A stretch of DNA of 64,000 bases, taken from Octopus sinensis. Taxonomy: Eukaryota. The translations under genes and the position numbers were made by a program. Below, piece after piece: positions 6,123 to 45,045 of the stretch (position 1 is its first letter; every line of letters starts with the position of its first letter). The notes beneath the pieces were generated by a model. That model saw nothing but the letters and a program-made list of their open reading frames with translations, was not told the origin of the DNA and did no database searches. The stretch is taken from positions 6,448,001 to 6,512,000 of the forward strand of contig NC_043010.1 of NCBI RefSeq assembly GCF_006345805.1, read 5' to 3'.

Positions 6123-6644
6123 TTATAAAAAATTGGACAGCTGATGGTGATTAAATATAATCATTTAGTGAAACTGGGTGTCATCCTCAGCATCCTCATC
6201 ATCGTTGTCATTGATGCCGCACTCACCATTAGCATTGTTATCATCATCATCGTTGTCATTGTTGCCATCATCATCATCATCATCTTTATCATCATTGTTG
6301 TCATCATTTAATGTCTACATTTCAAAGCTTTCAGGGCTCAGAAGGATTTAGCTGGGAGAGATTTTCTATGGATGGATACCCTTTTTGTCACAGATTTTCT
6401 ATGGATAGATACCTATTTTTGTTACAGGATCACTCATTTACAGCTGAGTGAACAGGAGTGACGTGAAATGAAGTGTTTTGCTCAGGAATACATTGTGCTG
6501 CCTGCTCTGGGAATTGAACCCATGATGTAATAATGTTCTTTCCAAGCAACATAATGTTTCTCCATGGCCAGGCATCATTGTATGATGGTGATGCTCAATT
6601 ACAACCATCACATAATGTTAACACTAAAGTATACAAGGATACGC

Positions 6645-6825
6645 GCACACACACACACATACACACACACGGTGGGTTTCTTTCAGTTTCCATCTATGAA
6701 ATCCACCCACAAGTCTTTGGTTGGTCTGGGGCTGTCACAGAAGACACTTAATCTTTGGAGACATTCTGTGGGATTGAACCTGAAGCCATGTGGCTGGGAA
6801 GCAAACTTCATACAACACAGCTGTG
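6645..6825 (-). mobile_element. SINE family A 5' half; parent copy of the tandem array
   Basis: tttctttcagtttccatcta..aaatccacccacaag...agaagacactt runs directly into the first array unit. Confidence 0.8.
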
Positions 6826-9800
6826 CATACAACAATATTTGAGCAGTAAAGGAAAACAAAAAAAAAAAACAAAAAAAAATTTTAGGAGACATTCTGTGGG
6901 ATTGAACCTGAAGCAAAGGGGCTGGGAAGCAAACTTCATACCACACAGCTGTGCATTCAACAATATTTGAGCAGTAAAGGAAAACAAAAAAAAAATTTTA
7001 GGAGACATTCTGTGGGATTGAACCTGAAGTCATGTGGCTGGGAAGCAAAATTCATACCACACAGCTGTGCATACAACAATATTTGAGCAGTAAAGGAAAA
7101 CAAAAAAAAGCAAAAAAAAATTCAGGAGACATTCTGTGGGATTGAACCTGAAGCCATGAGGCTAGGAAGCAAACTTCATACCACACAGCTGTGCATACAA
7201 CAATATTTGAGCAGTAAAGGAAAACAAAAACAAACAAAAAAAATTTTAGGAGACATTCTGTGGGACTGAACCTGAAGCCATGGGGCTGGGAAGCAAACTT
7301 CATACCACACAGCTGTGCATACAACAATATTTGAGCAGTAAAGGAAAACAAAAAAAAAATTTTAGGAGACATTCTGTGGGATTGAACCTGAAGTCATGTG
7401 GCTGGGAAGCAAAATTCATACCACACAGCTGTGCATACAACAATATTTGAGCAGTAAATGAAAACAAAAAAAAAACAAAAAAAAAATTTTAGGAAACATT
7501 CTGTGGGATTGAACCTGAAGCCATGTGGCTGGGAAGCAAACTTCATACCACACAGCTGTGCATACAACAATATTTGGGCAGTAAAGAAAAACAAAAAAAA
7601 AGCAAAAAAAGTTTTAGGAGACATTCTGTGGGATTGAACCTGAAGCCATATGGCTGGGAAGCAAACTTCTTACCACACAGCTGTGCATACAACAATATTT
7701 GAGCAGTAAAGGAAAACAAAAAAAAAGCAAAAAAAAATTTTAGGAGACATTCTATGGGATTGAACCTGAAGCCATGGGGCTGGGAAGCAAACTTCATCCA
7801 CGCAGCTGTGCATACAACAATATTTGAGCAGTAAGGAAAACAAAAAGAGCAAAGAAAATTTAGGAGACATTCTGTGGGATTGACCTGAAGCCATGTGGCT
7901 GGGAAGCAAACTTCATACCACACAGCTGTGCATACAACAATATTTGAGCAGTAAAGGAAAACATAAAAAAAACAAAAAAAAATTTTAGGAGACATTCTGT
8001 GGGATTGAGCCTGAAGCCATGTGGCTGGGAAGCAAACTTCATACCACACAGCTGTGCATACAACAATATTTGAGCAGTAAAGGAAAACAAAAAAAAAACA
8101 AAAAAAAATTTTAGGAGACATTCTGTGGGACTGAACCTGAAGCCATGGGGCTGGGAAGCAAACTTCATACCATACAGCTGTGCATACAACAATATTTGAG
8201 CAGTAAAGGAAAACAAAAAAAAAATTTTAGGAGACATTCTGTGGGATTGAACCTGAAGTCATGTGGCTGGGAAGCAAACTTCATACCACACAGCTGTGCA
8301 TACAACAATATTTGAGCAGTAAAGGAAAACAAAAAGACAAAAAAAAAAATTTTAGGAGACATTCTGTGGGATTGAACCTGAAGCCATGGGGCTGGGAAGC
8401 AAACTTCATACCACACAGCTGTGCATACAACAATATTTGAGCAGTAAAGGAAAACAAAAAAAAAACAAAAAAAAATTTTAGGAAACATTCTGTGGGATTG
8501 AACCTGAAGCCATGTGGCTGGGAAGCAAACTTCATACCACACAGCTGTGCATACAACAATATTTGGGCAGTAAAGAAAAACAAAAAAAAAGCAAAAAAAG
8601 TTTTAGGAGACATTCTGTGGGATTGAACCTGAAGCCATATGGCTGGGAAGCAAACTTCTTACCACACAGCTGTGCATACAACAATATTTGAGCAGTAAAG
8701 GAAAACAAAAAAAAAACAAAAAAAATTTTAGGAGACATTCTGTGGGATTGAACCTGAAGCCATGTGGCTGGGAAGCAAACTTCATACCACACAGCTGTGC
8801 ATACAACAATATTTGAGCAGTAAAGGAAAACAAAAAAAAACAAAAAAAAATTTTAGGAGACATTCTGTGGGATTGAACCTGAAGCCATGTGGCTGGGAAG
8901 CAAACTTCATACCACACAGCTGTGCATACAACAATATTTGAGCAGTAAAGAAAACAAAAAAAACAAAAAAAAAATTTTAGGAGACATTCTGTGGGATTGA
9001 ACCTGAAGCCATGTGGCTGGGAAGCAAACTTCATACCACACAGCTGTGCATACAACAATATTTGAGCACTAAAGGAAACCCCAAAAAAAAAAAAAATTTT
9101 TAGGAGACATTCTGTGGGATTGAGCCTGAAGCCATGGGGCTGGGAATCAAACTTCATACCACACAGCTGTGCATACAATAATATTTGAGCAGTAAAGAAA
9201 AAAAAAAAAAATTTTACGAGACATTCTGTGGGATTGAGCCTGAAGCCATGGGGCTGGGAAGCAAACTTCATACCACACAGCTGTGCATACAACAATATTT
9301 GAGCAGTAAAGGAAAACAAAATTTAAAAAAAAACGACAAAAAAAATTTTAGGAGACATTCTGTGGGATTGAACCTGAAGCCATGGGGCTGGGAAGCAAAC
9401 TTCATACCACACAGCTGTGCATACAACAATATTTGAGCAGTAAAGGAAAACAAAATTTAAAAAAAAACGAGAAAAAAAATTTTAGGAGACATTCTGTGGG
9501 ATTGAACCTGAAGCCATGGGGCTGGGAAGCAAACTTCATACCACACAGCTGTGCATACAACAATATTTGAGCAGTAAAGGAAAACAAAATAAAAAAAAAA
9601 ACCAGAAAAAAAATTTTAGGAGACATTCTGTGGGATTGAACCTGAAGCCATGGGGCTGGGAAGCAAACTTCATACCACACAGCTGTGCATACAACAATAT
9701 TTGAGCAGTAAAGGAAAACAAAATTTTAAAAAAATCGACAAAAAAAATTTTAGGAGACATTCTGTGGGATTGAACCTGAAGCCATGGGTCTGGGAAGCAA

Positions 9801-12800
9801 ACTTCATACCACACAGCTGTGTTTACAACAATATTTGAGCAGTAAAGGAAAACAATAAAAAAAAAAAAAGATTTTAGGAGACATTCTGTGGGATTGAACC
9901 TGAAGCCATGGGGCTGGGAAGCAAACTTCATACCACACAGCTGTGCATACAACAATATTTGAGCAGTAAAGGAAAACAAAAAGACAAACAAAAAATTTTA
10001 GGAGACATTCTGTGGGATTGAACCTGAAGCCATGGGGCTGGGAAGCAAACTTCATACCACGCAGCTGTGCATACAACAATATTTGAGCAGTAAAGGAAAA
10101 CAAAATAAAAAAACAAAAAAAAAATTTTAGGAGACATTCTGTGGGAATGAACCTGAAGCCATGGGGCTGGGAAGCAAACTTCATACCACGCAGCTGTGCA
10201 TACAACAATATTTGAGCAGTAAAGGAAAACAAAAAGACAAAAAAAAAATTTTAGGAGACATTCTGTGGGATTGAACCTGAAGCCATGGGGCTGGGAAGCA
10301 AACTTCATACCACACAGCTGTGCATACAACAATATTTGAGCAGTAAAGGAAAACAAAAAGACAAAAAAAAAATTTTAGGAGACATTCTGTGGGATTGAAC
10401 CTGAAGCCATGGGGCTGGGAAGCAAACTTCATACCACACAGCTGTGCATACAACAATATTTGAGCAGTAAAGGAAAACAAAATAAAAAACAAAAAAAAAT
10501 TTTAGGAGACATTCTGTGGGATTGAACCTGAAGCCATGTGGCTGGGAAGCAAACTTCATACCACACAGCTGTGCATACAACAATATTTGAGCAGTAAAGG
10601 AAAACAAAAAAAACAAAAAAAAATTTTAGGAGACATTCTGTGGGATTGAACCTGAAGCCATGTGGCTGGGAAGCAAACTTCATACCACACAGCTGTGCAT
10701 ACAACAATATTTGAGCAGTAAAGGAAAACAAAAAAAAACAAAAAAAAAATTTTAGGAGACATTCTGTGGGATTGAACCTGAAGCCATGTGGCTGGGAAGC
10801 AAACTTCATACCACACAGCTGTGCATACAACAATATTTGAGCACTAAAGGAAACCCCAAAAAAAAAAAAAAAATTTTTAGGAGACATTCTGTGGGATTGA
10901 GCCTGAAGCCATGGGGCTGGGAATCAAACTTCATACCACACAGCTGTGCATACAATAATATTTGAGCAGTAAAGAAAAAAAAAAAAATTTTAGGAGACAT
11001 TCTGTGGGATTGAGCCTGAAGCCATGGGGCTGGGAAGCAAACTTCATACCACACAGCTGTGCATACAACAATATTTGAGCAGTAAAGGAAAACAAAATTA
11101 AAAAAAAACGACAAAAAAAATTTTAGGAGACATTCTGTGGGATTGAACCTGAAGCCATGGGGCTGGGAAGCAAACTTCATACCACACAGCTGTGCATACA
11201 ACAATATTTGAGCAGTAAAGGAAAACAAAATTTAAAAAAAAACGAGAAAAAAAATTTTAGGAGACATTCTGTGGGATTGAACCTGAAGCCATGGGGCTGG
11301 GAAGCAAACTTCATACCACACAGCTGTGCATACAACAATATTTGAGCAGTAAAGGAAAACAAAATAAAAAAAAAACGAGAAAAAAAATTTTAGGAGACAT
11401 TCTGTGGGATTGAACCTGAAGCCATGGGGCTGGGAAGCAAACTTCATACCACACAGCTGTGCATACAACAATATTTGAGCAGTAAAGGAAAACAAAATTT
11501 TAAAAAAATCGACAAAAAAAATTTTAGGAGACATTCTGTGGGATTGAACCTGAAGCCATGGGTCTGGGAAGCAAACTTCATACCACACAGCTGTGTTTAC
11601 AACAATATTTGAGCAGTAAAGGAAAACAATAAAAAAAAAAAAAGATTTTAGGAGACATTCTGTGGGATTGAACCTGAAGCCATGGGGCTGGGAAGCAAAC
11701 TTCATACCACACAGCTGTGCATACAACAATATTTGAGCAGTAAAGGAAAACAAAAAGACAAAAAAAAATTTTAGGAGACATTCTGTGGGATTGAACCTGA
11801 AGCCATGGGGCTGGGAAGCAAACTTCATACCACGCACGCTGTGCATACAACAATATTTGAGCAGTAAAGGAAAACAAAATAAAAAACAAAAAAAAATTTT
11901 AGGAGACATTCTGTGGGAATGAACCTGAAGCCATGGGGCTGGGAAGCAAACTTCATACCACGCAGCTGTGCATACAACAATATTTGAGCAGTAAAGGAAA
12001 ACAAAAAGACAAAAAAAAATTTTAGGAGACATTCTGTGGGATTGAACCTGAAGCCATGGGGCTGGGAAGCAAACTTCATACCACACAGCTGTGCATACAA
12101 CAATATTTGAGCAGTAAAGGAAAACAAAAAGACAAAAAAAAAATTTTAGGAGACATTCTGTGGGATTGAACCTGAAGCCATGGGGCTGGGAAGCAAACTT
12201 CATACCACACAGCTGTGCATACAACAATATTTGAGCAGTAAAGGAAAACAAAAAGACAAAAAAAAAAATTTTAGGAGACATTCTGTGGGATTGAACCTGA
12301 AGCCATGGGGCTGGGAAGCAAACTTCATACCACACAGCTGTGCATACAACAATATTTGAGCAGTAAAGGAAAACAAAATAAAAAAAAAAAAAAAAATTTT
12401 AGGAGACATTCTGTGGGATTGAACCTGAAGCCATGTGGCTGGGAAGCAAACTTCATACCACACGGCTGTGCATACAACAATATTTGAGCAGTAAGGAAAA
12501 CAAAAAAAAACAAAAAAAAAATTTTAGAGACATTCTGTGGGATTGAACCTGAAGCCATGTGGCTGGGAAGCAAACTCATCATACCACACAGCTGTGCATA
12601 CAACAATATTTGAGCAGTAAAGGAAAACAAATAAAACAAAAAAAAAATTTTAGGAGACATTCTGTGGGATTGAACTGAAGCCATGGGGCTGGGAAGCAAA
12701 CTTCATACCACGCAGCTGTGCATACAACAATATTTGAGCAGTAAAGGAACAAAATAAAAAACAAAAAAAAATTTTAGGAGACATTCTGTGGGATTGAACC

Positions 12801-14449
12801 TGAAGCCATGGGCTGGGAAGCAAACTTCATACACGCAGCTGTGCATACAACAATATTTGAGCAGTAAAGGAAACAAAATAAAAAACAAAAAAAAAATTTT
12901 AGGAGACATTCTGTGGGATTGAACCTGAAGCCATGGGGCTGGGAAGCAAACTTCATACCACACAGCTGTGCATACAACAATATTTGAGCAGTAAAGGAAA
13001 ACAAAATAAAAAAACAAAAAAAAAAATTAGGAGACATTCTGTGGGATTGAACCTGAAGCCATGGGGCTGGGAAGCAAACTTCATACCACACAGCTGTGCA
13101 TATAACAATATTTGAGCAGTAAAGAAAACAAAATAAAAAACAAAAAAAAATTTTAGGAGACATTCTGTGGGATTGAACCTGAAGCCATGGGGCTGGGAAG
13201 CAAACTTCATACCACGCAGCTGTGCATACAACAATATTTGAGCAGTAAAGGAAACAAAATAAAAAACAAAAAAAAATTTTAGGAGACATTCTGTGGGATT
13301 GAACCTGAAGCCATGGGGCTGGGAAGCAAACTTCATACCACGCAGCTGTGCATCAACAACAATATCTGAGCAGTAAAGGAAAACAAAATAAAAAAAAAAA
13401 AAAAAAAAAATTTAGGAGACATTCTGTGGGATTGAACCTGAAGCCATGGGGCTGGGAAGCAAACTTCATACCACGCAGCTGTGCATACAACAATATTTGA
13501 GCAGTAAAGGAAAACAAAATAAAAAAACAAAAAAAAAATTTTAGGAGACATTCTGTGGGATTGAACCTGAAGCCATGGGGCTGGGAAGCAAACTTCATAC
13601 CACGCAGCTGTGCATAAACAATATTTGAGCAGTAAAGAAAACAAAATAAAAAAACAAAAAAAAATATTAGGAGACATTCTGTGGGATTGAACCTGAAGCC
13701 ATGGGGCTGGGAAGCAAACTTCATACCACGCAGCTGTGCATACAACAATATTTGAGCAGTAAAGGAAAACAAAATAAAAAAACAAAAAAAAATTTTTAGG
13801 AGACATTCTGTGGGATTGAACCTGAAGCCATATGGCTGGGAAGCAAACTTCATACCACACAGCTGTGCATACAACAATATTTGAGCAGTAAAGGAAAACA
13901 AAATAAAAAAACAAAAAAAAAATTTTAGGAGACATTCTGTGGGATTGAACCTGAAGCCATGGGGCTGGGAAGCAAACTTCATACCACGCAGCTGTGCATA
14001 CAACAATATTTGAGCAGTAAAGGAAAACAAAATAAAAAACAAAAAAAAAATTTTAGGAGACATTCTGTGGGATTGAACCTGAAGCCATGGGGCTGGGAAG
14101 CAAACTTCATACCACGCAGCTGTGCATACAACAATATTTGAGCAGTAAAGGAAAACAAAATAAAAAAACAAAAAAAAAATTTTAGGAGACATTCTGTGGG
14201 ATTGAACCTGAAGCCATGGGGCTGGGAAGCAAACTTCATACCACACAGCTGTGCATACAACAATATTTGAGCAGTAAAGGAAAACAAAATAAAAAAACAA
14301 AAAAAAAATTTTAGGAGACATTCTGTGGGATTGAACCTGAAGCCATGGGGCTGGGAAGCAAACTTCATACCACGCAGCTGTGCATACAACAATATTTGAG
14401 CAGTAAAGGAAAACAAAATTAAAAAAAACAAAAAAAAAAACTTGAGACA
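6759..14449 (-). repeat. Satellite array of ~61 units of ~113-134 bp, made of a SINE head plus upstream flank
   Basis: Constant core gagacattctgtgggattgaacctgaagccatgkggctgggaagcaaacttcataccacacagctgtgcatacaacaatatttgagcagtaaaggaaaac followed by a variable A-rich tract; units counted by eye. Confidence 0.97.
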
Positions 14450-24274: not shown

Positions 24275-26092
24275 TATTTTCTATTAATTCCGTTTCCATT
24301 TCTAGCCAAGTGTCTTCCCGACACCTAGGGCAGAGAAACATACTGTTATACATTGGTAGGTCATTCAAATAAACACACCAGATTGCTCATTTACAAAGTC
24401 ATGTGACAGAGAAAAAGAGGAAGACAGAGAAAAAGGAAAAAAAGGAAAAATAAATAGGGTAACAAATAAAATAAAGGGGGTGAAAAAGGAAAGAAAATTC
24501 ACAGTGACAATGCTCTTCTCAATACATGTCACATACCAGTTAAGACAATCTTTTGCACTTCCTACATGGATGGTAAGCTAGGTATCATTCTTAAATAATT
24601 TTCAGTTGCTTTCTTGATCATTCTAAGTGCTCCTACAATCATTCTTAAATAATTTTCAGTTGCTTTCTTGATCATTCCAAGTGCTCCTACAATCATTCTT
24701 AAATAATTTTCAGTTGCTTTCTTGATCATTCCAAGTGCTCCTACAATCATTCTTAAATAATCTTCAGTTGCTTTCTTGATCATTCCAAGTGCTCCTACAA
24801 TCATTCTTAAATAATCTTCAGTTGCTTTCTTGATCATTCCAAATGCTCCTACAATCATTCTTAAATAATTTTCAGTTGCTTTCTTGATCATTCCAAGTGC
24901 TCCTACAATCATTCTTAAATCATTTTCAGTTGCTTTCTTGATCATTCCAAGTGCTCCTACAATCATTCTTAAATCATTTTCAGTTGCTTTCTTGATCATT
25001 CCAAGTGCTCCTACAATCATTCTTAAATAATCTTCAGTTGCTTTCTTGATCATTCCAAATGCTCCTACAATCATTCTTAAATAATCTTCAGTTGCTTTCT
25101 TGATCATTCTAAGTGCTCCTACAATCATTCTTAAATAATTTTCAGTTGCTTTCTTGATCATTCCAAGTGCTCCTACAATCATTCTTAAATAATCTTCAGT
25201 TGCTTTCTTGATCATTCCAAGTGCTCCTACAATCATTCTTAAATAATCTTCAGTTGCTTTCTTGATCATTCCAAGTGCTCCTACAATCATTCTTAAATAA
25301 TCTTCAGTTGCTTTCTTGATCATTCCAAGTGCTCCTACAATCATTCTTAATAATCTTCAGTGCTTTCTTGATCATTCCAAATGCTCCTACAATCATTCTT
25401 AAATAATTTTCAGTTGCTTTCTTGATCATTCCAAGTGCTCCTACAATCATTCTTAAATCATTTTCAGTTGCTTTCTTGATCATTCCAAGTGCTCGTACAA
25501 TCATTCTTAAATAATTATCAGTTCCTTTTTTTTATCATTCCAAGTGCTCCTACAATCACTGGTATTGTAATCGTCTTGTGATGCCACATCTTTTTGATTT
25601 TGATTAGAAAATCTTTATATTTTCTGAGCTTATCGAATTCTTTTGCCAAGATATTATGGTCACAAGGTATGCTCTTGTCAATCAATAAACAGACTTTATT
25701 GTTTTTGTCTTTCATAACAATATCTGGTTTATTTGCTTTGATGGTCCATTCTGTACATATTGGAAAGTCCCAATGAATGGTTATATTTTCTCCCTCTGTT
25801 ACAGCTTCAGAGTGATTCTTGTGCCATTTGTCAGCAGTTTTGATATTATAATGCTGACGTTATCCGATGTAGATATTGGCCAACTCTGTCATATCTTGAT
25901 TTGTACTCTACATGTGCTAAAACCTTACATCCAGAGATTAGGTAGTCTGCTGTTTCTATCCCATCATTGCAGTATTGGCACTTTAGGTCTACACCATTTT
26001 TCATCACATTGGCTTGATAGTTCCGAGTCAAAAATCTCTGATCTTGAGCAGCCAAGGTAAAGCCTTCTCTCTCTGCCTTTAACCCAGTGCTG
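24275..26092 (-). mobile_element. R4/Dong-type (RLE) non-LTR retrotransposon 3' fragment, degenerate
   Basis: AAQDQ..TRNY, zinc knuckle C-x2-C..ETADYLISGC (His lost), WDF...NKPDIV...LID.SIP (PD..D nuclease), K..KYKD, IPVIVGALG, EVQKIVLTG..HVLRRALS; flanked by (TAA)n. Confidence 0.9.
24584..25557 (-). repeat. 54-bp tandem array, ~18 copies, inside the LINE ORF
   Basis: Unit tcattcttaaataattttcagttgctttcttgatcattccaagtgctcctacaa = 18 aa MIVGALGMIKKATE(D/N)YLR on the minus strand. Confidence 0.97.
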
Positions 26093-28812: not shown

Positions 28813-29662
28813 CAGGAGTTTGACAAAATAATGGAAGCACCTAGCATATAAGCATCATGATTTTGAAATATCTATAAAATTGTCAAAAACTTGTTTATTT
28901 TTATGGTTTTTGATTTATTGTTAATGTTGCATAACATGTTTTGCTAAAATTGCTGTTTATTTTCAGATATCATCAGAAAAAGGGAATTCAAATTCATTGA
29001 AATGACAGATCTATTGGACTTTCAAAGAGGTCAAATTGGTGCTCATATGGCAGGCACTAGTGTAACGGAAACAGCCAAAATGTTTGGTGTATCAAGGATT
29101 ACTGTCTTGAAAGTAATGACAGCCTTTGTGAAAGAGGGAAAAACCTCCTTGTCGAAACCAAACTCCGGAAGAAAACCAAAACTTTCTGTCAGAGACTGTT
29201 GGACTCTTACATGAATTGTTAGAAAGGATCATAAAAGTTCAGCTCCCAAAATTACTACAGAGCTTAATGACCACCTCGAGAATCCAGTTTCCACAAAAAT
29301 TGTTTGCCTGGAGTTGCACAAAGCCAGATTTCATGGGAGGGCTGCGATCAGAAAACCACTACTTTCAAAAACAAATGTTACAAAGCGTTTAGAGTGCAGT
29401 AAAAACCTACAGAATTGGTCCCTAGAACAGTAGAAGAACGTTATTTTCTCGGATGTGTCATCCTTTACTTATTTCCAACCACTGGCTGAGTATATGTGTG
29501 GAGACATCCAAAAGAAGCATTTGACCCAGACTACCTTCTTCCAACAGTTAAATATGGAGGAGGATCTATGATCTGGCGGGATATATCTTGGAAATTAGCT
29601 GGCCCAATGGTTTTCCCTCATGGCAGAATTAATAGTGAAAACTATTTAAGCATTTTATCTGA
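28813..29662 (+). mobile_element. Tc1-like transposon, 3'-truncated, transposase pseudogene
   Basis: ta|caggagtttgacaaaataatgg putative TIR; MTDLLDFQRGQI..HTH..SGRKPKLS, KPLL, VIFSD, VWR...PTVKYGGGSMIW; stops and frameshifts. Confidence 0.88.
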
Positions 29663-29675
29663 ATACCATGGTGTT

Positions 29676-29938
29676 AAAGGTAAAGGTAAAGTTACTTTCT
29701 CGAGTCATAAGGCTCATAAGAGCTTGTTTTCCAGTTTCATGGCATTTATGTTCCTCACCTGGATGGGACACTAGTCCATCACAGGATTACTCATTTTTAC
29801 CAGCTGAGTAGACTGGAGCAATGTGAAATAAAGTGTTTTGCTCAAAAACACAATGCATTGCCCAGTCCAGGAAATGAAACCACAATCTTAGGATAAGGAG
29901 TCCAACAGCCTAACCACTAAGCCACATGGCTCAGCATG
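29676..29938 (-). mobile_element. tRNA-derived SINE family F
   Basis: Minus strand: gtggcttagtggttagg head; tail (ttacct)n; TSD ccatggtgtt at 29666-29675 and 29939-29948. Confidence 0.85.
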
Positions 29939-37310: not shown

Positions 37311-38580
37311 AGAGGGGCGTTCAATAAGTAATGCCTCTGACCCACTTGCAGTTGTTTGATCTAGCTGAAATTTTGCATGTGCAATTATTTATATCTCTAT
37401 AGATTAAGTGGCAAATTACAGCTCTGAACTAATTGTGGTTTCCGATTTACAGGTGTTTGAACTGAGTCAAGTGTGAAATGGAGCATGTTGAGTGTCGAGC
37501 AGTGATCCGGTTTTTGTATTTGAAAGGATGCACACCACAGGAGACTTTTGATGAAATGAAAATAACTTATGGTGATGATGCACCATCATATGACCTTGTA
37601 AAACGCTGGCATCGTGAATTCAAACATGGTCGGAACTCTGTGGAAACGGCTCCCAGATATGGTCGCCCCCTTCTGCCATTGATGAGGCATCTGTCTGTCA
37701 AGTTGAGGCTGCCATTTTGGAAGATCGACGCATAACTATTCGCCAAATAGCCCATGAGGTCAAGATTAGTACCGGGTCTGTGGAAACTATCATTCACGAC
37801 CATTTGCATATGCAAAAGGTGTCTGCCAGATGGATTCCCAGGTTGCTCACACCTTTCCAGAAGCAAGAACACGTCGATTGCTCGAGGATGAATTTGGAGA
37901 TGTGCCAAGAAGATGAGTCAAAATTTTTCAAAAGACTGATTGCATAGGATAAAACCTGGATCCATCACTATGATCCAGAGACCAAAGCCCAGTCAATGCA
38001 GTGGAAGCACCGTGACTCACCTCCTCCAAAGAAGGCAAGGGTGCAGCCCTCCACTGGCAAGGTCATGCTTACAGTCTTCTGGGACCAGGACGGAGTAGTG
38101 AAGTCAGATTTCCTGGCAAAGGGTGCCACAATTACAGGAGTCTATTATGCTTCACTTTTGAGGAAATTAAGAGAAGCTATCAAAATCAAGAGGCGGGGCA
38201 AGATCAGCAAAGGCATCCTCCACCTGCAGGACAACTCGTGTATCGCCAGATCAGAAGCACAGGCGTGCGGCTATGAACTCATCCCCCATCCCCCCTACTC
38301 TCCTGACCTTGCACCCTCTGATTTTCACCTCTTCCCAGCCATGAAGTTGTTTTTGAAAGGAAAGCGTTTCCCAGATGATGCAGCCTTGATTTCTGAAGTC
38401 ACGTCGTGGTTGGAGGACCAAGCTGGGGTCTTCTACAAAAACGGTCTTCAGAGCTGCATCAAACGATGGGAGAAATGCGTAACTCTGGGTGGTTCCTATG
38501 TAGAAAAAGACTAATAACTGTTCCAAGTTTCGTTGCTCTACTGCTATGGGTCAGGGGCATTACTTATTGAACGCCCCTCG
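37311..38580 (+). mobile_element. Full-length mariner transposon (1270 bp)
   Basis: TIRs (a/c)gaggggcgttcaataagtaatgccyctgaccca at both ends; TA TSD. Confidence 0.96.
37478..38514 (+). pseudogene. Mariner transposase pseudogene
   Basis: MEHVECRAVIRFL..HTH, WIPRLL (WVPHEL motif), D(K)TWIHHYDPE, LQDN, HPPYSPDLAPSDFHLF; frameshift near 37670, in-frame stop near 37945, deletion after DN. Confidence 0.93.
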
Positions 38581-44425: not shown

Positions 44426-45045
44426 TAATCGAAATTGAACCAAATTCGACGACTGGCACCCATGCCAACCTTCCTTCATTGAACACTAAACTCTGCTTGC
44501 GAAGACCTGTTGGAGCAAGTGAAATCAAAATTGAACCAAATTCGACGACTGGCACACATGCCAACCTTCCTTCATTGAACACTAAACTCTGCTTGCGAAG
44601 ACCTGTTGGAGCAAGTGAAATCAAAATTGAACCAAATTCGACGACTGGCACCCATGCCAACCTTCCTTCATTGAACACTAAACTCTGCTTGCGAAGACCT
44701 GTTGGAGCAAGTGAAATCAAAATTGAACCAAATTCGACGACTGGCACCCATGCCAACCTTCCTTCATTGAACACTAAACTCTGCTTGCGAAGACCTGTTG
44801 GAGCAAGTGAAATCAAAATTGAACCAAATTCGATGACTGGTACCTGTGCCAGTGGAGCACTAACAGCTCCATCTGAGTGGGATCACTGCCAGAGCAGCTG
44901 TCTGGCTTCTGTGCCAGTGGCATGTAAAAAGCACCATTCAAGCATTTGACACTTGTGCCGGTGGGTGGCACGTGAAAAAAAGATTCAAGCGAGGAGATCG
45001 TTGCCAGTGCCACTGAACTGACTCCTGTGCAGGTGGCGCGGAAAA
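44426..45045 (+). mobile_element. Family D-related segment containing a 96-bp x ~4.4 tandem array (44426-44846)
   Basis: aaattgaaccaaattcg at 44432, 44528, 44624, 44720, 44816; aaactctgcttgcgaagacc shared with 20988-21130; gtgccggtgg repeats downstream. Confidence 0.85.

What the first reader, a model, noticed from the sequence alone, without database searches (positions are those of the whole stretch)
6759..14449. ~61-copy array of candidate Pol III mini-genes built from a SINE head
Seen: on the minus strand each unit reads ~35 nt of flank, an A-box-like cagctgtgtgg, a 32-nt spacer, a B box ggttcaatccc, ~20 nt, then a long oligo-T tract. The unit is the tRNA-like head of the SINE at 6645-6825 plus its upstream flank, delimited by gagaca at 6759 and 14444. 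The duplication therefore placed a T-run directly behind every promoter. Known: A+B boxes recruit TFIIIC, runs of four or more T terminate Pol III, and clustered B boxes can act as chromatin boundaries. Inference: the array may yield a ~80-90 nt tRNA-like RNA at high dosage, or act as a TFIIIC platform. It may also be a neutral satellite; the A box has lost its first T and no clean cloverleaf is evident.
Basis: partly seen in the sequence, partly recalled or inferred. Interest (0 to 1): 0.72.

Follow-up and report, generated by a model that had tools for sequence, protein, structure and literature searches.

The report
Satellite grown from decayed SINE head
The front end of one old, worn copy of a common jumping element, plus the T-rich DNA beside it, is repeated 61 times in a row; the same element has formed tandem runs at many other places in this genome, so this is likely an ordinary, unselected repeat, although each unit does look like a tiny RNA polymerase III gene whose activity is untested.

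Summary
The array is real: 61 units of 113-134 bp at 6758-14443, at one locus, seen as a tandem in DNA runs of four organism labels. Each unit is the tRNA-like head of one SINE copy plus its upstream flank; 60 of 61 B boxes have a T run about 18 nt behind. The founder was the most decayed of 30 copies (27% from the family majority). The B box is not spared: 5 of 40 variant alleles in 11 of 93 nt, 4.7 expected. The predicted 86-nt RNA folds like shuffles. The same SINE head forms tandem runs at 29 other listed places; five long ones read lack any T run, so amplification does not need a working mini-gene. Contigs of runs guessed to be RNA cross the predicted start and terminator. Verdict: a SINE-derived satellite (sSat kind, PMC10702118), likely neutral; Pol III output is untested. 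The scan noted sister arrays before, in this genome (e1-10337035) and others.

The parts
6758..14443 (-). Tandem array of 61 units (113-134 bp): T-rich upstream flank + tRNA-like SINE head; 93-nt core 98.4% identical to the majority unit on average
6645..6757 (-). Single-copy remainder of the founder SINE: body (to about 6669) and (TG)n tail; 19 of 82 body positions differ from the family majority
14315..14390 (-). SINE head in the outermost unit (unit 61); 14390 is the position that aligns with the family's 5' end and the predicted Pol III start
14370..14380 (-). A-box-like word of unit 61 (example); majority form has 2 of 9 specified positions off the published consensus (family: 1 of 9)
14327..14337 (-). 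B box of unit 61 (example), a full match to GGTTCRAnYCY; the family majority has G at position 7
14285..14308 (-). T tract of unit 60 (example): would terminate a transcript from unit 61, and also holds the -31/-24 region of unit 60's predicted start
14391..14443 (-). Locus-specific upstream flank taken into the unit (17 nt plus T tract); not matched by any dispersed hit
6758..6763 (+). Left GAGACA word
14444..14449 (+). Right GAGACA word
8732..12274 (.). 14-unit block duplication: units 17-30 (1774 bp) and 31-44 (1769 bp) differ by 4 substitutions and 15 gap columns

Best explanation
This is a single-locus satellite of 61 units made of the head of one decayed tRNA-type SINE copy plus its own upstream flank, likely started by a local DNA-level duplication and likely grown by unequal exchange without selection for function. 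Shown: unit anatomy, locus-specific flank inside the unit, old founder but uniform units, a 14-unit block duplication, many sister arrays with other boundaries. Inferred: mispairing at or near the short GAGACA word began it; unequal crossover or slippage (helped by the A/T tract) expanded and homogenised it; the T run behind each promoter is an accident of a T-rich flank. Any Pol III or TFIIIC activity would be incidental and is untested.
For: Unit includes flank that no dispersed hit matches, which an RNA copy of the SINE would not carry. Founder differs from the family majority at 42 of 158 positions, more than any of 29 other copies (1-25%); head not better kept than the unamplified body, while units are 98.4% alike. 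B box holds 5 of 40 variant alleles against 4.7 expected; 11 of 61 units deviate, 5 of them at the conserved TTC. 14-unit block repeat. Three or more tandem B boxes of this family at 9 listed places (100 of 132 matches listed, control 0) and 20 more (all 66 matches listed, 4 of them this array; three places may be one locus). Of 9 read, periods are 62-129 bp and copies 3-112; T4 is in the unit only in the two 3-copy runs; arrays of 21 and 60 copies lack an A box. 9 of 29 family copies have T4 in their 48-nt upstream flank. Predicted RNA z = -0.06. Same layout as published sSats (PMC10702118).
Against: The B box is a perfect consensus match in 50 of 61 units, better than the family majority (3 of 29 other copies match), and only 1 of its 11 positions differs from the family against about 21 of 65 in the rest of the head. 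No other array with this B box at a period of 100-130 bp was found, and none of the five other long arrays read has a terminator, so the complete A + B + T-run layout is unusual among them. The -31/-24 region is A/T-rich. The array is present in runs of four organism labels. Run X13, guessed to be RNA, holds unit contigs at depth 54-127, unexplained. The variation test has low power.
Confidence: 0.8

Rival explanations
1. A selected array of Pol III mini-genes that makes an ~86-nt tRNA-like RNA at high dose (snaR- or 4.5SH-like).
For: Perfect B box, 32-nt spacer, start 10 nt before the A box, T run 18 nt after the B box in 48 of 60 units; non-consensus boxes can work (PMC10137851, passages); present in four organism labels.
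Against: B box not spared; first A-box T lost; decayed founder; no fold beyond shuffles; contigs of runs guessed to be RNA go past the predicted start in 4 of 4 and hold two successive units in 2 of 4, though such libraries and contigs cannot show a short RNA.
Confidence: 0.06
2. A TFIIIC landing platform or chromatin boundary, kept for its clustered B boxes and nucleosome-disfavouring A/T tracts.
For: 50 perfect B boxes in 7.7 kb; clustered B boxes as boundaries is recalled knowledge, not tested here.
Against: B-box variants have spread by duplication; no host gene recognised within 100 kb of the window among 199 frames scanned, a weak test; sister arrays grow without intact promoters.
Confidence: 0.07
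3. The array was written through RNA, by repeated insertion of the SINE into itself or by template jumping, as earlier notes propose for other multimers in this genome.
For: Unchecked notes e1-10333171, e1-10332882, e1-10356381; near-full-length multimers of period about 150-160 bp are listed.
Against: The unit carries about 50 nt from upstream of the SINE start, lacks the SINE 3' end, and comes from a 27%-diverged copy.
Confidence: 0.04
4. Assembly artefact, wholly or in part (for example the 14-unit block).
For: Block copies are 99% alike; units 46-55 show scattered single indels like long-read errors.
Against: Contigs holding the unit-to-unit joint occur in 4 of 4 DNA-type runs; single-contig depth of unit over flank is roughly 41-88 in the three with flank cover (rough, not a copy number).
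Confidence: 0.03

Closest known systems
SINE-derived satellites (sSat1-3) of squamates, Vassetzky, Kosushkin, Ryskov 2023, PMC10702118 (read parts 1-4 of 5; supplements not read)
   Same: Unit shorter than the SINE (70-290 nt there), one terminal unit continuing to the SINE end, long loci very uniform; sSat3Gja2 is the 5' part plus about 30 nt of unknown origin, sSat3Ppi2 the tRNA portion.
   Different: Invertebrate; single locus-specific unit rather than a family shared by many loci; the extra sequence is traced to the founder's own upstream flank and supplies a T run behind a complete promoter.
Tandem SINE arrays of the blood clam Scapharca broughtonii, PMC11481361 (passages)
   Same: Mollusc, tRNA-type SINE in direct tandem arrays.
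   Different: 4-15 whole elements with target-site duplications; here 61 head-only units.
snaR and 4.5SH RNA genes, PMC3045588 (passages), PMC10137851 (passages), PMC7279448 (abstract and outline)
   Same: SINE-related type 2 Pol III units with a T terminator in tandem arrays: what the array would work like if transcribed.
   Different: Those have shown, structured RNAs and sit in kilobase-scale duplicons; here units are 126 bp, no RNA is shown and the predicted one has no stable fold.
Amphibian Pol III tandem repeats (OAX, PolIII/TAN, Rana/polIII), as summarised in PMC10702118
   Same: Tandem repeats with a tRNA-like part; PolIII/TAN is reported to be transcribed in vitro.
   Different: Multi-locus or abundant families with no shown SINE parent; here the parent copy is still attached.

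Membership tests
SINE-derived satellite (sSat) | Head-to-tail units derived from part of a SINE, shorter than the SINE | tested here: met
   76 nt of each 126-bp unit align to the family head
SINE-derived satellite (sSat) | At least four middle monomers, uniform in long loci | tested here: met
   61 units, core 98.4%
SINE-derived satellite (sSat) | A terminal unit that continues into the rest of the SINE | tested here: met
   Unit 1 continues into body and tail at 6757-6645
SINE-derived satellite (sSat) | Tendency to subtelomeric position | tested here: inconclusive
   6.45 Mb from one end of a 68.4-Mb contig; telomeres not located
Type 2 Pol III gene | Box B GGTTCRAnYCY | tested here: met
   50 of 61 units
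Type 2 Pol III gene | Box A TRGYnnARBGG about 11 nt from the start, 30-40 nt before box B | tested here: inconclusive
   Position and 32-nt spacing fit; 2 of 9 specified bases do not
Type 2 Pol III gene | Run of 4 or more T downstream | tested here: met
   60 of 61 units
Type 2 Pol III gene | Discrete transcript and Pol III/TFIIIC occupancy | not testable with these tools
   Only contigs of runs guessed to be RNA were laid; they cannot show starts, ends or strand
Functional tandem Pol III RNA gene array (snaR, 4.5SH) | Promoter boxes kept better than the rest of the unit | tested here: not met
   11 of 40 alleles in both boxes against 9.5 expected; low power
Functional tandem Pol III RNA gene array (snaR, 4.5SH) | Structured RNA product | tested here: not met
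   -16.8 kcal/mol, z -0.06, 90 of 200 shuffles fold as well
tRNA gene | Cloverleaf with anticodon | tested here: not met
   ARAGORN 0 genes in the window; no tRNA match in Rfam for 6300-7400

The most novel reading that the evidence does not exclude
A chance duplication rebuilt a complete Pol III transcription unit (A box, perfect B box, terminator) from a dead SINE and multiplied it about 60-fold, so the locus now makes an abundant 86-nt RNA: a snaR- or 4.5SH-like RNA gene family caught at birth, with terminator-less sister arrays as natural controls.
Probability: 0.12. Interest if true: 0.6.

Novelty: new member of a known kind. Interest (0 to 1): 0.2.

Why it matters
As it stands it extends SINE-derived satellites to another animal group and shows that one SINE family seeds dozens of independent arrays, each with its own boundaries. 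It is the one long array among those read here that has both promoter boxes and a terminator, so it is the best locus in the set for asking whether such accidents yield new Pol III RNAs. Without that RNA it is ordinary repeat DNA.

Tried and rejected
ARAGORN and Rfam: nothing. Host gene: 121 of 229 filtered frames plus 78 of 104 shorter ones (left out: frames judged simple-repeat or transposon by eye) in the window and 100 kb on each side gave only transposon domains or sub-threshold hits; short exons would be missed, so an intronic position is open. In one search the unique flank has no cover in X13, X19 and X20 and one contig at depth 2.4 in X10; missing cover in contigs proves nothing, so array-specific expression is not claimed. 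Rough depth arithmetic for X13 (about 151 upstream of the predicted start and 106 beyond the first T4, against 174 in the head, assuming 31-letter words) is a hint only. X1 has no flank cover, so no ratio. Long ORFs over the array are by-products of the repeat. An 8-unit periodicity was not supported beyond one or two unit pairs. A reading as a poly(A)-tailed insert between GAGACA target-site duplications was rejected because the head is in register with the body. Paper searches (listings only) showed no paper on SINE-head satellites in cephalopods; subscription journals and supplements were not seen, and the SINE family could not be named.

Full report
Observation. The array is there as described. 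Anchoring on the unit start gives 61 units of 113-134 bp (mean 126) from 6758 to 14443; TRF reports 92-93% matches. On the minus strand the majority unit reads flank, A-box-like word, 32-nt spacer, B box, 12 nt to the unit end; the first run of four or more T follows 16-20 nt after the B box in 60 of 61 units (18 nt in 48), the exception being unit 1, which runs into the SINE body. Corrections are small: left GAGACA at 6758, SINE start at 6833. A search of G000 with one unit returned 61 hits in this array at 87-100% and 39 dispersed partial hits of 49-82 bp at 78-90%, none covering the flank part of the unit (only the best candidates are scored). That the genome is an octopus is my recall of its repeat landscape and the wording of earlier notes; I did not test it.

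The founder. Thirty-one head sequences (founder, unit 61, and 29 others from the window and from 10 loci) align over head and body. The founder differs from the majority at 42 of 158 positions, the others at 1-25%. By region: leader 6 of 10, A box 3 of 11 in unit 1 (2 in the majority unit), spacer 8 of 32, B box 1 of 11, next 12 nt 5 of 12, unamplified body 19 of 82. Units are 98.4% identical to their majority core. So an old, decayed copy was amplified long after it inserted. Against the published consensus (box A TRGYnnARBGG, box B GGTTCRAnYCY; PMC10137851, passages) the array's box B is perfect in 50 of 61 units, whereas the family majority has G at position 7 and only 3 of 29 other copies match; box A misses two specified bases. 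The same paper shows that non-consensus boxes can work, so sequence alone does not exclude transcription.

Selection test. Among the 61 units, 40 distinct variant alleles fall in the 93-nt core. Box B has 5 (4.7 expected), both boxes 11 (9.5 expected); substitutions alone give 3 of 29 (3.4 expected). Five units carry a change in the conserved TTC, two A7 to T, two A7 to G (the family's own state), two single deletions that may be read errors. The test is weak but shows no sparing. The predicted 86-nt RNA folds at -16.8 kcal/mol, z -0.06; ARAGORN and Rfam find nothing.

Growth. Units 17-30 and 31-44 form a 14-unit block repeat with 4 substitutions and 15 gap columns in 1.77 kb, the mark of unequal exchange (or, less likely, of assembly). 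The unit holds about 50 nt from upstream of the SINE start, so the first duplication was likely at DNA level. Whether GAGACA was a pre-existing microhomology is uncertain: the internal joint matches neither end exactly, and the founder just behind the B box resembles the right flank word more than the family.

Sister arrays. A pattern of three family B boxes 100-130 bp apart has 132 matches in G000 (control 0); the 100 listed fall at 9 places. At 131-161 bp there are 66 matches, 4 in this array and the rest at 20 places, three of which may be one locus. I read the 9 places: periods 62, 62, 64, 106, 108, 114, 117, 122, 129 bp; 3 to 112 copies; T4 inside the unit only in the two 3-copy runs; the 21- and 60-copy arrays lack an A box; some include upstream flank as here. 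Amplification of this head is therefore common and needs neither terminator nor promoter. Nine of 29 family copies have T4 within 48 nt upstream, so a T run behind the promoter is expected in a fair share of flank-containing duplications. Against my reading: with the perfect B box at a 100-130 bp period only this array was found (25 of 25 matches). Other transposon-fragment minisatellites are frequent nearby.

Other runs. The stretch is held by 20 runs of 10 studies and four organism labels. In 4 of 4 DNA-type runs laid, contigs contain the unit-to-unit joint (10-15 laid letters on the short side, below the tool's 31-letter bar for bridging) at depths of up to 231-371 in X1, X7 and X11; single-contig depth of unit over flank is about 73-88 (X3), 41-42 (X7) and 52-55 (X11), a rough figure that brackets 61. 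Flanks differ from the window by about 1-2% and unit contigs by a similar amount, so the array is older than the split of these close lineages but shows no extra conservation. Four runs guessed to be RNA all hold unit contigs reaching 14403-14408, 13-18 nt upstream of the predicted start; in X19 and X20 one contig has 49 or more letters in each of two successive units. These molecules are not bounded by the predicted start and terminator, but they may be DNA, strand is unknown, and an 86-nt RNA could be lost from such libraries, so this neither shows nor refutes Pol III output. The high depth in X13 (54-127 per contig) is unexplained; read-through RNA captured on the plus-strand A tracts is my guess. 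No host gene was recognised within 100 kb (weak test).

Comparison. The layout meets the tested features of the SINE-derived satellites of squamates (PMC10702118, parts 1-4 of 5 read), including head units with extra sequence. Tandem SINE arrays are also reported in a clam (PMC11481361, passages). If transcribed it would work like snaR or 4.5SH arrays (PMC3045588, passages; PMC7279448, abstract), but two of their features were tested and not met. SINE fragments are common in octopus transcripts (PMC9115989, passages). Six searches (listings) showed no paper on such arrays in cephalopods; supplements were not read. Earlier notes of this scan reached the same reading for the 112-copy array of this genome and for arrays in other genomes; they are not independent evidence, and I had counted the 112 copies myself first.

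Verdict. Real, well explained, likely neutral: new member of a known kind, interest 0.2. The remaining open point is whether the accidental A + B + T-run layout yields a small RNA (probability about 0.12 for an abundant one).

Noticed in passing
G000:C9:14.822-14.834 Mb (L115-L117); C29:4.77 Mb (L114); C26:2.97 Mb (L113); C24:11.62 Mb (L111); C25:8.19 Mb (L112): Independent arrays of the same SINE head: 112 x 111-114 bp with intact A box, 60 x 64 bp and 21 x 108 bp without A box, 13 x 62 bp at two loci with the same joint; none has a T4.
   Followed up: partly
G000:C17:9.10 Mb, C19:46.86 Mb, C1313, C3453, C28:11.64 Mb: Further arrays of this family, from a 30-bp B-box-only unit to near-full-length multimers of about 156-160 bp.
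   Followed up: no
window 24584-25558 and 44427-44851; L066 5902-6678; L071 6812-7262; L077 4622-5025 and 8207-8760: Other local minisatellites (54 bp x 18, 96 bp x 4.4, 96 bp x 7.8, 63 bp x 7.2, 62 bp x 6.5, 185 bp x 3) that look like pieces of interspersed repeats.
   Followed up: no
window 6736-6770: The founder has a 7-bp inverted repeat around its most diverged segment, absent from the family majority; may reflect template switching.
   Followed up: no
window 28948-29771 and 37466-38511: Broken Tc1/mariner transposase relics.
   Followed up: no
L080 1363-4236 (-): A 958-aa open frame with endonuclease and reverse transcriptase domains, a well-kept LINE ORF2 about 90 kb beyond the window.
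   Followed up: no
window 14300-14403, run X13: A run guessed to be RNA holds near-perfect unit contigs at depth 54-127, far above the other three such runs (4-15); cause unknown.
   Followed up: partly
family alignment: Most copies of this very abundant SINE have G instead of A at box B position 7, as in the 4.5SI RNA gene.
   Followed up: no
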